This document shows positions 62,227 to 62,829 of a stretch of DNA of 64,000 bases, piece by piece. Numbering within the stretch: position 1 is the first letter of the stretch; each line of letters opens with the position of its first letter. The stretch lies in NCBI RefSeq assembly GCF_054482595.1, contig NZ_CM137008.1, one strand, 5' to 3'. The position numbers and the translations under genes were made by a program. The notes below the pieces were generated by a model. The model was not told where the DNA came from and did not search any database. It worked only from the letters and a program-made list of their open reading frames with translations.

Positions 62227-62829
62227 ATGCTAACCTTCTGGCACGAATATTCAGATCTCATATCCGCATTTTTAGCAGCTCTTTTAGGTGGCTGTTTCAC
62301 GATGATTGGAGTGACAACTCAGGTGAAACAGCAGGCAAAACAGCAGGCAACAGCGGCCAGAGAGAAGCGTATAACAACGCTATTGGGTGTCAGAGAGGAA
62401 ATAGACTCACTGATTAAACTGTATCAGGCCAGAATGGCAGAAGAAATCGAAAAATACGACCGGAACTCACCGTTCGATAACATTTTCCCCATTACTCAAA
62501 ACTACTTCACGTTCTATGAAGCCAACTCGGCATCCCTACCTGAAGTTCATAGAGAAACACTCTCAAAAATTGTGGCTTTTTATACAAGCGCAAGAAGCCT
62601 AATTGATTCCTATCGCGGCAATAATGCGCTTATCGAACGGCTAGACTCCACGCAGGTTGCAAGTGACATTACTGGCAACAAAGAACATCTTGCACACCTG
62701 AAAAGATACACAATCCTAGCCACAGAGTACGGCCGCGGATTAATGATGATTCATGATGAGGTCATGCTCCGCTATAAACAGGTTATAGAAGCCATCGATG
62801 GTGAAATCTCACAGCTACAATGCAGTTAG
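62227..62829 (+). CDS. hypothetical membrane-anchored protein
   Basis: 200-aa ORF; one N-terminal hydrophobic helix (LISAFLAALLGGCFTMIGV) then KQQAKQQ and helical/charged region; weak SD; AT-rich context. Confidence 0.45.
   Translation: MLTFWHEYSDLISAFLAALLGGCFTMIGVTTQVKQQAKQQATAAREKRITTLLGVREEIDSLIKLYQARMAEEIEKYDRNSPFDNIFPITQNYFTFYEANSASLPEVHRETLSKIVAFYTSARSLIDSYRGNNALIERLDSTQVASDITGNKEHLAHLKRYTILATEYGRGLMMIHDEVMLRYKQVIEAIDGEISQLQCS

What the first reader, a model, noticed from the sequence alone, without database searches (positions are those of the whole stretch)
62227..62829. Small membrane-anchored protein paired with the HslV-like gene
The 200-aa ORF has one N-terminal hydrophobic helix followed by a KQQAKQQ linker and a largely helical charged domain, and lies 480 bp upstream of the HslV-like gene on the same strand. 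Small membrane proteins co-encoded with an enzymatic partner are common in abortive-infection-type modules, but the functional link here is only positional.
Basis: inference. Interest (0 to 1): 0.45.

Follow-up and report, generated by a model that had tools for sequence, protein, structure and literature searches.

The report
Stand-alone prophage membrane protein, not paired
The 200-aa ORF is a real, conserved gene for a small inner-membrane protein of a large unnamed family. It travels alone between prophages, phage-plasmids, integron cassettes and defence islands, so it is probably a self-contained phage-exclusion gene and not a partner of the proteasome-like gene next to it.

Summary
**Observation: confirmed.**
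- ORF 62227-62829 (+) encodes 200 aa: one N-terminal TM helix, a KQQAKQQ linker and an all-helical domain.
- It lies 482 bp upstream of a gene with a proteasome-beta/HslV-like fold.
- It is under purifying selection (dN/dS about 0.14).

**Setting.** This is E. coli. The gene is the first cargo gene of a lambdoid prophage inserted beside torT, in the lambda "b region" slot next to ea47.

**Pairing: not supported.**
- Each gene has its own conserved upstream DNA. The two modules join at about 62895-62948.
- ORF1 occurs without ORF2 in 33 plasmids (the two examined are SSU5-like phage-plasmids), and in Serratia, Dickeya, Cronobacter and two E. coli genomes.
- ORF2 relatives occur without ORF1 in 37 E. 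coli genomes, and in Pantoea, Providencia and Citrobacter.

**What ORF1 is.**
- It belongs to a family of 751 clusters (at 50% identity) that matches no Pfam, NCBIfam, PADLOC or PDB entry.
- Topology is N-out/C-in. The TM helix carries a conserved small-residue (glycine-zipper-like) pattern, and the cytoplasmic domain is a four-helix bundle.
- One member is a single-gene Vibrio-type integron cassette; another sits inside a type I R-M operon next to an AbiJ-like gene. Close homologues lie beside Septu and an Hhe/PDC-S37 helicase.

**Best reading (inferred, untested):** an autonomous membrane-anchored phage-exclusion or abortive-infection gene.

The parts
62061..62226 (+). Conserved upstream region that travels with ORF1 (putative promoter/operator). 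It holds a -10-like CATAAT at 62199-62204 (TATAAT in Serratia and Cronobacter). This overlaps a 7-bp inverted repeat, GTTAAAT-N7-ATTTAAC, at 62189-62209. A GGA Shine-Dalgarno-like element lies at 62215-62217.
   Evidence: Homology with the Dickeya, Cronobacter and UViG copies starts at 62060-62061, and with Serratia at 62123. The generic promoter scan did not call a site here, so the promoter assignment is inferred.
62227..62829 (+). ORF1 coding sequence, 200 aa (RefSeq WP_021577015.1, 'hypothetical protein'). It is a bitopic inner-membrane protein, N-out/C-in, with a cytoplasmic four-helix-bundle domain.
62257..62313 (+). Codons 11-29: the single TM helix. Small residues are conserved at positions 14, 17, 18, 21, 22, 25 and 28 (a glycine-zipper-like pattern).
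   Evidence: Hydropathy analysis. Column counts over 56 members at 20-55% identity: position 17 small in 56/56, position 21 in 56/56, position 22 G53/S3, position 28 G/A/S in 54/56.
62880..62909 (+). Perfect 10-bp inverted repeat (an 11-bp stem in the RNA fold), 50 nt after the stop codon and at the 3' edge of the ORF1 module. No T-run follows. Possibly a terminator, an RNA-stability element or a module boundary.
   Evidence: Module ends are at 62875 (Serratia), 62895 (Dickeya) and 62948 (E. coli TL20).
62943..63311 (+). Upstream region belonging to the ORF2 module, not to ORF1. It is conserved together with ORF2 in a Pantoea prophage that has no ORF1.
   Evidence: 80.6% identity between window 62943-63999 and L034 4631-5692.
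63312..64000 (+). ORF2, 5' part (299 aa in full; it runs off the window). It is a stand-alone proteasome-beta/HslV-like Ntn-hydrolase-fold protein and an independent cargo gene.
61676..62065 (.). Flank segment to the left of ORF1. It is shared with the torT flank of another strain and with DNA beside ibsB. It marks the edge of the inserted cargo, with the junction at about 62061-62081.

Best explanation
ORF1 is an autonomous single-gene cargo cassette (a 'moron') of temperate phages and other mobile elements. It is not half of a two-gene module.

**Shown.** It is a real gene under purifying selection, with its own conserved 165-bp upstream region. It encodes a bitopic inner-membrane protein: about 10 residues outside, one TM helix with a conserved small-residue zipper, and about 170 cytoplasmic residues predicted to form a four-helix bundle. 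That domain has a near-invariant polar set (E58, Y66, Y93, N100, Y119, D127, N132, N133, Y168, H176). The gene moves alone between unrelated mobile elements and sits next to known defence systems.

**Inferred.** It is expressed from the prophage in the lysogen. The TM helices self-associate in the inner membrane. The cytoplasmic bundle recognises something that appears during infection by another phage. The outcome is either a block to genome entry at the inner membrane (superinfection exclusion) or membrane permeabilisation that aborts the infection. Which of these two applies, and what the trigger is, remain unknown.
For: **Real gene.** dN/dS is 0.14-0.15. dS is only 0.29-0.39 between E. coli and Serratia or Dickeya, which points to recent horizontal transfer.

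**Moves alone.**
- The module boundaries are about 62061-62895.
- Copies 96-98% identical sit in SSU5-like phage-plasmids, as a lone + strand gene among - strand genes.
- Other copies lie in two kinds of E. coli prophage, at a Cronobacter prophage end and in a plasmid-prophage.
- One family member is a one-gene cassette flanked by attC/VCR repeats in a Vibrio-type superintegron.

**Defence neighbourhood.**
- Septu PtuA/PtuB in Serratia, and an Hhe/PDC-S37 helicase (E=0) in Dickeya.
- One member lies between hsdS and hsdM, next to an AbiJ_NTD4 gene.
- Others lie directly after integrases, or in the lambda b-region slot next to ea47.

**Topology.** Of 143 members, 112 have one TM helix. K+R averages 0.45 before the helix and 3.22 after it, and 119 of 129 members have more K+R after the TM than before it. 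Longer members add a signal peptide and a periplasmic spacer before the TM.

**TM helix.** Conserved small residues suggest helix-helix packing and not a passive anchor.

**Precedent.** About a third of experimentally validated integron defence cassettes contain TM helices, and one of them (Deva) is reported to interfere with genome injection (bioRxiv 10.1101/2024.07.02.601719).
Against: - There is no experimental or homology link to any known defence or exclusion protein. Pfam, NCBIfam, PADLOC and PDB sequence searches are all negative, and every named homologue is a 'hypothetical protein'.
- Some distant members sit in apparently ordinary chromosomal contexts: after a peptide ABC transporter in five alphaproteobacterial MAGs, or next to pyruvate kinase.
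- No close or distant member was found in 50,697 deposited phage genomes.
- The most conserved motif, residues 82-100, lies mostly in the low-confidence part of the model (pLDDT below 50 for 71-76, 83-86 and 88-90).
- Guilt by association is weak evidence for any single gene.
Confidence: 0.45

Rival explanations
1. One reading: ORF1 and the proteasome/HslV-like ORF2 form one two-gene abortive-infection-type module, with a membrane effector or anchor plus a protease.
For: The genes are adjacent on the same strand. They also move together as a block about 2.1 kb long and 98.9% identical between two different E. coli prophage types (the lambdoid prophage at torT and the argW prophage) and a plasmid.
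Against: - A 482-bp spacer separates them, and it contains ORF2's own upstream region, which travels with ORF2 in Pantoea.
- ORF1 occurs without ORF2 in 33 plasmids, in Serratia, Dickeya and Cronobacter, and in two E. coli strains where a different gene follows an IS3 fragment.
- ORF2-like genes occur without ORF1 in 37 E. coli genomes, in Pantoea, Providencia and Citrobacter, and on 5 plasmids.
- No member of the wider ORF1 family had an ORF2-like neighbour in any of the loci fetched, about 30 in all.
Confidence: 0.06
2. ORF1 is an accessory inner-membrane protein with a function unrelated to phage. Examples are an envelope or stress fitness factor, a lysogenic-conversion function, or a membrane-tethered small-molecule sensor or enzyme that uses the conserved polar pocket. 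It hitch-hikes on mobile elements.
For: Distant members lie beside ordinary genes: a peptide ABC transporter, pyruvate kinase and DJ-1. The conserved set of E, D, N, N, H and Y residues could form a ligand or catalytic site. The fold resembles 4HB ligand-binding sensor domains as much as anything else.
Against: In the close clade every context is a prophage, a phage-plasmid or a defence island. The gene is rare and patchy (10 of 5,426 E. coli genomes) and often decays by frameshift or truncation. That pattern is typical of arms-race cargo.
Confidence: 0.3
3. ORF1 is a membrane toxin or addiction element that stabilises the mobile element carrying it. Its TM zipper would form pores, and it would be kept in check by an unrecognised antitoxin or by tight repression through the operator-like inverted repeat.
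For: The TM helix has a conserved glycine-zipper-like pattern. An inverted repeat overlaps the -10-like element. A family member sits in an integron array rich in toxin-antitoxin cassettes.
Against: No conserved neighbouring small gene or antisense RNA was found: Rfam is negative, and the small minus-strand ORF upstream is disrupted by a 4-nt indel in Dickeya. A single-gene integron cassette carrying an unneutralised toxin is unlikely to persist.
Confidence: 0.12
4. ORF1 is a spurious ORF in AT-rich acquired DNA.
For: GC is low (0.44), there is no database annotation, and the Shine-Dalgarno element is weak.
Against: dN/dS is about 0.14. The start, the length and the motifs are conserved down to 20-25% identity across 751 clusters.
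Confidence: 0.01

Closest known systems
Prophage-encoded membrane superinfection-exclusion proteins (for example lactococcal Sie2009-type proteins encoded beside the integrase; coliphage T4 Imm, P22 SieA/SieB, HK97 gp15). Cited from my own knowledge.
   Same: A small single gene carried by temperate phages near the integrase/att end, expressed independently of lytic genes, and anchored in the inner membrane by an N-terminal helix. In the argW prophages ORF1 lies directly after intS.
   Different: There is no detectable sequence similarity: the Pfam scans of ORF1 and of 56 family members returned no superinfection-exclusion family or any other consistent family. Almost all of ORF1 is cytoplasmic. 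No exclusion phenotype has been tested.
Single-gene, TM-containing phage-resistance integron cassettes (BRiCs, for example Deva), bioRxiv 10.1101/2024.07.02.601719
   Same: A family member is a one-gene integron cassette flanked by attC sites. The proteins are small, have TM helices and have no recognisable domain.
   Different: No sequence link could be established. The motif search of that paper's supplement found nothing. Those cassettes come from mobile integrons and have been tested experimentally; this family has not.
Phage lambda b-region accessory genes (ea47, ea31, ea59)
   Same: Same genomic slot: between the tail-fibre genes and att, convergent with the tail genes. The next gene but one is lambda ea47 itself (97.9% nucleotide identity).
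   Different: ORF1 and ORF2 replace ea31/ea59 and are unrelated to them. ORF1 is absent from lambda and from all 50,697 deposited phage genomes.
Generic membrane-tethered four-helix bundles (4HB_MCP sensor domains such as Tar, PilJ and TorS; DUF3829; LemA-like architecture)
HslV / 20S proteasome beta subunits (for the neighbour ORF2 only)
   Same: Ntn-hydrolase fold. Thr follows the initiator Met directly. An invariant Asp and Lys are spaced 16 residues apart, like the proteasome's D17 and K33.
   Different: There is no Pfam Proteasome match. ORF2 has about 100 extra C-terminal residues. None of the annotated neighbours in the loci examined looks like an HslU-type ATPase. It occurs as a lone cargo gene in prophages and ICEs.

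Membership tests
Two-gene abortive-infection-type module (membrane protein + enzymatic partner) | The two genes co-occur across genomes | tested here: not met
   They co-occur only in one E. coli block at 99% identity or above (6 genomes and 1 plasmid). ORF1 occurs alone in 33 plasmids and in 4 other genera. ORF2-like genes occur alone in 37 E. coli genomes, 3 genera and 5 plasmids.
Two-gene abortive-infection-type module (membrane protein + enzymatic partner) | Operon organisation: tight spacing and a shared upstream region | tested here: not met
   The gap is 482 bp. Each gene carries its own conserved upstream DNA, and the modules break at about 62895-62948. Co-transcription itself could not be tested.
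Autonomous mobile-element cargo gene (moron or single-gene cassette) | Mobilised as a unit of one gene with its own upstream region, in unrelated elements | tested here: met
   The module is 62061-62895. It is found in a lambdoid prophage, an argW prophage, SSU5-like phage-plasmids, a Cronobacter prophage and chromosomal islands. A family member is an attC-flanked one-gene integron cassette.
Anti-phage defence gene (by genomic association) | Recurrent location beside known defence systems | tested here: inconclusive
   Defence or mobile-element hallmarks: Septu, Hhe/PDC-S37, type I R-M with AbiJ_NTD4, integrases and prophage cargo slots. Ordinary contexts also exist. Only about 20 contexts were sampled, and no enrichment statistic was computed.
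Anti-phage defence gene | Protection against phage infection when expressed | not testable with these tools
   This needs plaque or efficiency-of-plating assays.
Zorya ZorB / MotB (weak PADLOC hit) | Significant profile match beyond the TM helix, a ZorA partner, and a peptidoglycan-binding domain | tested here: not met
   The hit scores only 15.7 bits (E 0.002) over residues 4-54, which is the TM helix plus linker. Only 1 of 56 family members hits it. No ZorA-like neighbour is present.
Phage lysis proteins (holin, antiholin, i-spanin) | Location in a lysis cassette, and a periplasmic C-terminal domain for spanins | tested here: not met
   The gene lies in the b region or integrase-proximal cargo, not next to an endolysin. 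The C-terminal domain is predicted to be cytoplasmic. No consistent holin hit was found; 1 of 56 members hit a holin phrog.
Any curated protein family (Pfam, NCBIfam, PADLOC, PHROGs, PDB) | Profile match at or above threshold | tested here: not met
   ORF1 and 56 diverse members have no consistent Pfam, NCBIfam or PADLOC hit. Only phrog_33426 (unknown function) is hit, by 7 of 56 members. The PDB profile search has a best E of 0.21.
HslV / proteasome beta family (neighbour ORF2) | N-terminal catalytic Thr with Asp and Lys partners on an Ntn-hydrolase fold | tested here: met
   M1-T2, D21 and K37 are invariant in 17 homologues. The AF2 model has pTM 0.82. Foldseek gives probability 1.00 to 20S beta subunits.
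HslV / proteasome beta family (neighbour ORF2) | Sequence-level membership (Pfam Proteasome) and an HslU-type ATPase partner | tested here: not met
   ORF2 has no Pfam hit at E<=1. None of the annotated neighbours in the five contexts looks like an HslU-type ATPase.

The most novel reading that the evidence does not exclude
The ORF1 family is a widespread, previously unrecognised single-gene anti-phage system. It covers 751 clusters at 50% identity, spans several phyla and has no Pfam entry. In this reading, a cytoplasmic four-helix-bundle sensor tethered by a glycine-zipper TM helix oligomerises on sensing infection. It then blocks genome entry or collapses the membrane. It would be small enough to circulate as an integron cassette and as a prophage moron.
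Probability: 0.3. Interest if true: 0.55.

Novelty: new member of a known kind. Interest (0 to 1): 0.35.

Why it matters
If the defence reading holds, this would add a compact (about 0.8 kb with its promoter), single-gene, membrane-anchored system to the defence catalogue. It has a large family behind it and is missed by PADLOC, Pfam and NCBIfam. The locus also shows that the lambda b-region slot beside att is a swappable cargo bay: two independent cassettes (ORF1 and a stand-alone proteasome-like hydrolase) sit next to ea47. For annotation, adjacency in a prophage cargo region should not be read as an operon. The comparative data here separate two genes that look paired in one genome.

Tried and rejected
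- **Family and structure libraries.** Pfam, PADLOC, PHROGs and NCBIfam scans of ORF1 and of 56 family members found no informative family. The weak ZorB hit covers only the TM helix and was rejected.
- **PDB profile search:** nothing below E 0.2.
- **The search for related loci.** The broad alignment A3 had no conserved stretch to search with. Subgroup A4 gave 16 genome loci and no viral contigs.
- **tblastn against 50,697 phage genomes** with ORF1, the distant member P0029 and ORF2: no matches.
- **Rfam** on 61500-64000: nothing credible.
- **Consensus promoter/terminator scan:** no better than shuffled sequence.
- **Literature.** No paper mentions WP_021577015. Nothing relevant turned up for HslV-like defence genes or for the lambda ea genes. 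A motif search in the supplement of the integron-defence preprint found nothing.
- **Small minus-strand ORF 62005-62151.** I considered it as a divergent partner and rejected it, because a 4-nt indel disrupts it in Dickeya.
- **HEPN-like Rx4-6H motif (R170...H176).** Rejected, because R170 is not conserved in the family and H176 is replaced by D in some members.

Full report
**1. Where we are**

The window is E. coli. torD, torA, torC, torR and torT occupy 55.4-61.6 kb. Only 6 of 5,426 complete E. coli genomes match most of 61600-64000.

In strain CREC-2 the order is: torT (-), ORF1 200 aa (+), ORF2 (+), a 410-aa gene (+), then the tail-fibre assembly gene, tail fibre, lom and gpJ (all -). The 410-aa gene is lambda ea47, with 97.9% nucleotide identity to lambda 22564-24289.

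ORF1 and ORF2 therefore sit in the non-essential "b region" slot of a lambdoid prophage, next to its attachment end beside torT. This is the position where lambda carries ea31/ea59. The same block, with the tail genes, also sits on plasmid pSM107_MCR.

**2.

- ORF 62227-62829 (+) is 200 aa.
- It has one hydrophobic segment (residues 11-29), then VKQQAKQQATAAREKR, then an all-helical remainder.
- The next same-strand gene starts at 63312, 482 bp downstream.
- GC is 0.44 in ORF1 against 0.53 in torT.
- The ORF is real. dN/dS is 0.14-0.15 against the Serratia and Dickeya copies, and homologues keep the same start, length and motifs.
- dS across genera is only 0.29-0.39, which points to recent horizontal spread.

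**3. The neighbour really is proteasome/HslV-like**

- Seventeen ORF2 homologues share invariant M1-T2, D21 and K37. The Asp-Lys spacing of 16 residues matches the proteasome's D17/K33.
- The AF2 model (pLDDT 79, pTM 0.82) matches 20S beta subunits with Foldseek probability 1.00 and E about 5e-9.
- ORF2 has no Pfam hit.
- The conserved Met-Thr start shows that the 299-aa start (window 63312) is correct. The 345-aa RefSeq model in CREC-2 is probably too long.

**4. The pairing does not hold**

*(a) The modules have separate boundaries.* blastn of 61400-64000 against all fetched loci gives the following:

| Locus | Shares window coordinates |
|---|---|
| Dickeya | 62061-62895 |
| Serratia | 62123-62875 |
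| Two viral contigs | from 62060 |
| E. coli TL20 | 61915-62948 |
| Pantoea prophage without ORF1 | 62943-63999 (80.6% identity) |

The Pantoea match covers ORF2 plus its own 370-bp upstream region. The two genes are therefore separate modules joined at about 62895-62948.

*(b) Counts.*

| Collection | Both genes | ORF1 only | ORF2-like only |
|---|---|---|---|
| E. coli complete genomes (5,426) | 6 | 4 (2 intact, followed by an IS3 fragment and a different gene; 2 degraded) | 37 (divergent copy; in the one examined it lies in an integrative conjugative element) |
| PLSDB plasmids | 1 | 33 | 5 |

*(c) Other genera.*
- ORF1 homologues stand without ORF2 in Serratia, Dickeya, Cronobacter and a plasmid-prophage.
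- ORF2 homologues stand without ORF1 in three settings:
  - a Pantoea prophage, beside a Cap15 + CD-NTase CBASS;
  - a Providencia P2-like prophage, between two ogr copies;
  - a Citrobacter ICE.

The joint movement of the E. coli block between the torT lambdoid prophage and an argW prophage is explained by linkage inside a cargo region.

**5. What ORF1 is**

*Family size and status.* A profile of 14 close homologues, searched exhaustively against 1.84 billion representative proteins, finds 751 clusters at E<=1e-3 and 263 at E<=1e-10. Nearly all are 190-220 aa and align end to end.
- None of 56 diverse members has a consistent Pfam, NCBIfam or PADLOC match. Seven hit phrog_33426, which has unknown function.
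- All source names are 'hypothetical protein', and none has a precomputed Pfam domain.
- No PDB sequence relative exists.

*Topology.*
- 112 of 143 members have a single TM helix.
- K+R averages 0.45 in the 15 residues before the TM and 3.22 after it, and 119 of 129 members have more K+R after the TM than before it.
- Longer members add a signal peptide and a spacer of about 60-90 aa before the TM.

The conserved domain is therefore cytoplasmic (N-out/C-in).

*TM helix.* It is unusually conserved for an anchor. Small residues sit at positions 14, 17, 18, 21, 22, 25 and 28 (position 17 in 56/56, 21 in 56/56, 22 G53/S3), giving i/i+4/i+8 zipper faces. I take this to indicate helix-helix packing; that is inference.

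*Cytoplasmic domain.* It has a near-invariant polar set: E58, Y66, Y93, F94, N100, Y119, D127, N132, N133, Y168 and H176.

**6. The gene behaves as an autonomous cassette**

- Close copies (96-98% identity) lie in 32 non-mobilizable IncFIB plasmids of about 107-126 kb from Enterobacter, Citrobacter and Salmonella.
  - The two examined are SSU5-like phage-plasmids; one is 97.6% identical to phage SSU5 over 5.6 kb.
  - In both, ORF1 is a lone + strand gene among - strand genes, with variable neighbours. SSU5 itself lacks it.
- A distant member (P0032) is a one-gene cassette bounded by attC/VCR repeats (5881-5974 and 6564-6691 around gene 6001-6567). The array has at least 15 repeats and also carries toxin-antitoxin and acetyltransferase cassettes.
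- Other members:
  - two lie directly after integrases;
  - one is in a phage-like contig;
  - one is beside a phage virion-morphogenesis gene;
  - one lies in a type I R-M operon, in the order hsdR, AbiJ_NTD4 gene, 257-aa gene, hsdS, family member, hsdM.
- Defence neighbours:
  - In Serratia the homologue shares a small island with Septu; PtuA scores 6.7e-40 and PtuB 4.7e-22.
  - In Dickeya it lies beside a 1,964-aa helicase that matches PDC-S37 (E=0) and Hhe (2.9e-175).
- Not every context is mobile or defence-like. Five related alphaproteobacterial MAGs have it after a peptide ABC transporter, and one member lies next to pyruvate kinase.

**7. Signals around the gene**

- The 165 bp upstream are conserved across genera. 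They contain CATAAT/TATAAT at 62199-62204, inside an inverted repeat GTTAAAT-N7-ATTTAAC (62189-62209), 22 nt before the ATG.
- A hairpin with a 10-11-bp stem lies at 62880-62909, at the 3' module edge.
- The generic promoter/terminator scan is uninformative.
- Expression was not tested.

**8. Interpretation**

*Shown:* ORF1 is a real, horizontally mobile, stand-alone gene for an N-out/C-in bitopic membrane protein of a large uncharacterised family, often located in prophage cargo slots and next to defence systems.

*Inferred:* it is a single-gene phage-exclusion or abortive-infection factor acting at the cytoplasmic face of the inner membrane.
- I give this about 0.45.
- The preprint on integron cassettes reports that about a third of validated defence cassettes contain TM helices, and that one of them interferes with genome injection (10.1101/2024.07.02.601719). 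This is precedent, not evidence of homology.
- Rivals: a non-defence accessory membrane protein (0.3), a membrane toxin or addiction element (0.12), the two-gene module (0.06), and a spurious ORF (0.01).

**9. Verdict**

The finding as framed, a membrane protein paired with an HslV-like enzyme, is not supported. What is there is two independent cargo genes side by side, each an unannotated family. ORF1 is a reasonable but untested candidate defence gene. That is of moderate interest, because many such candidates exist and no mechanism can yet be shown.

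Noticed in passing
window 61676-62065 (also L012 4001-4398, L013 3801-4488): This 390-bp segment between torT and ORF1 is 88% identical to DNA beside ibsB (the yegL-ibsA-ibsB locus) in many E. coli strains. It is 96% identical to the torT flank of strain VCSW7. In both places it is followed by different cargo that ends in a DUF4236 gene. Its last 145 bp also precede ORF1 directly after intS in argW prophages. It may be a hotspot or recombination flank.
   Followed up: partly
window 61820-61875 (+), with a promoter-like site at 61682-61711: Inside that segment there is a terminator-like hairpin (18-nt arms, 83% complementary) followed by a T-run, about 110-190 nt downstream of a promoter-like site. 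This could be an unannotated small RNA. Rfam finds nothing.
   Followed up: no
window 63312-64000 and L001 16712-17611: ORF2 belongs to a stand-alone proteasome-beta/HslV-like family (invariant T2, D21, K37; no Pfam hit). It occurs alone in prophage and ICE cargo sites. One is next to a Cap15/CD-NTase CBASS in Pantoea, and another lies between ogr copies in a Providencia P2-like prophage. It is a separate candidate worth its own study.
   Followed up: partly
L001 16574-17611 versus L002 11642-12541: RefSeq gives two different starts for the same ORF2 (345 aa, WP_233337191.1, versus 299 aa, WP_104769329.1). The invariant Met-Thr N-terminus of homologues supports the 299-aa start.
   Followed up: yes
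L049, L050 (plasmids NC_032102.1 and CP082664.1): ORF1 is most common on plasmids: 32 records from Enterobacter, Citrobacter and Salmonella carry copies 96-98% identical. The two examined are SSU5-like phage-plasmids. There it sits in a variable locus between a 165-aa hypothetical gene and the phage Dam methylase. SSU5 itself lacks it.
   Followed up: yes
L002 9708-10010 (plasmid pSM107_MCR): An IncI-type mcr plasmid carries the same lambdoid b-region and tail-fibre fragment (ORF1, ORF2, ea47, tfa, stf, lom, J). The fragment is inserted into a truncated thermonuclease gene just after the shufflon recombinase.
   Followed up: no
P0025, P0026 (Citrobacter, Salmonella); L011 8291-8611 (E. coli PSS-04): There are frameshifted 124-aa versions and a truncated 106-aa version of ORF1. 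This shows that the gene is readily lost.
   Followed up: no
L003 8795-11708 (Serratia): The island between arsP and nrdDG holds the ORF1 homologue, an unknown 261-aa protein and a Septu PtuA/PtuB pair. The 261-aa protein has no PADLOC hit.
   Followed up: partly
L033 414-8141 (alphaproteobacterial MAG): A type I R-M operon has three inserted genes, in the order hsdR, AbiJ_NTD4 protein, 257-aa unknown, hsdS, ORF1-family member, hsdM.
   Followed up: partly
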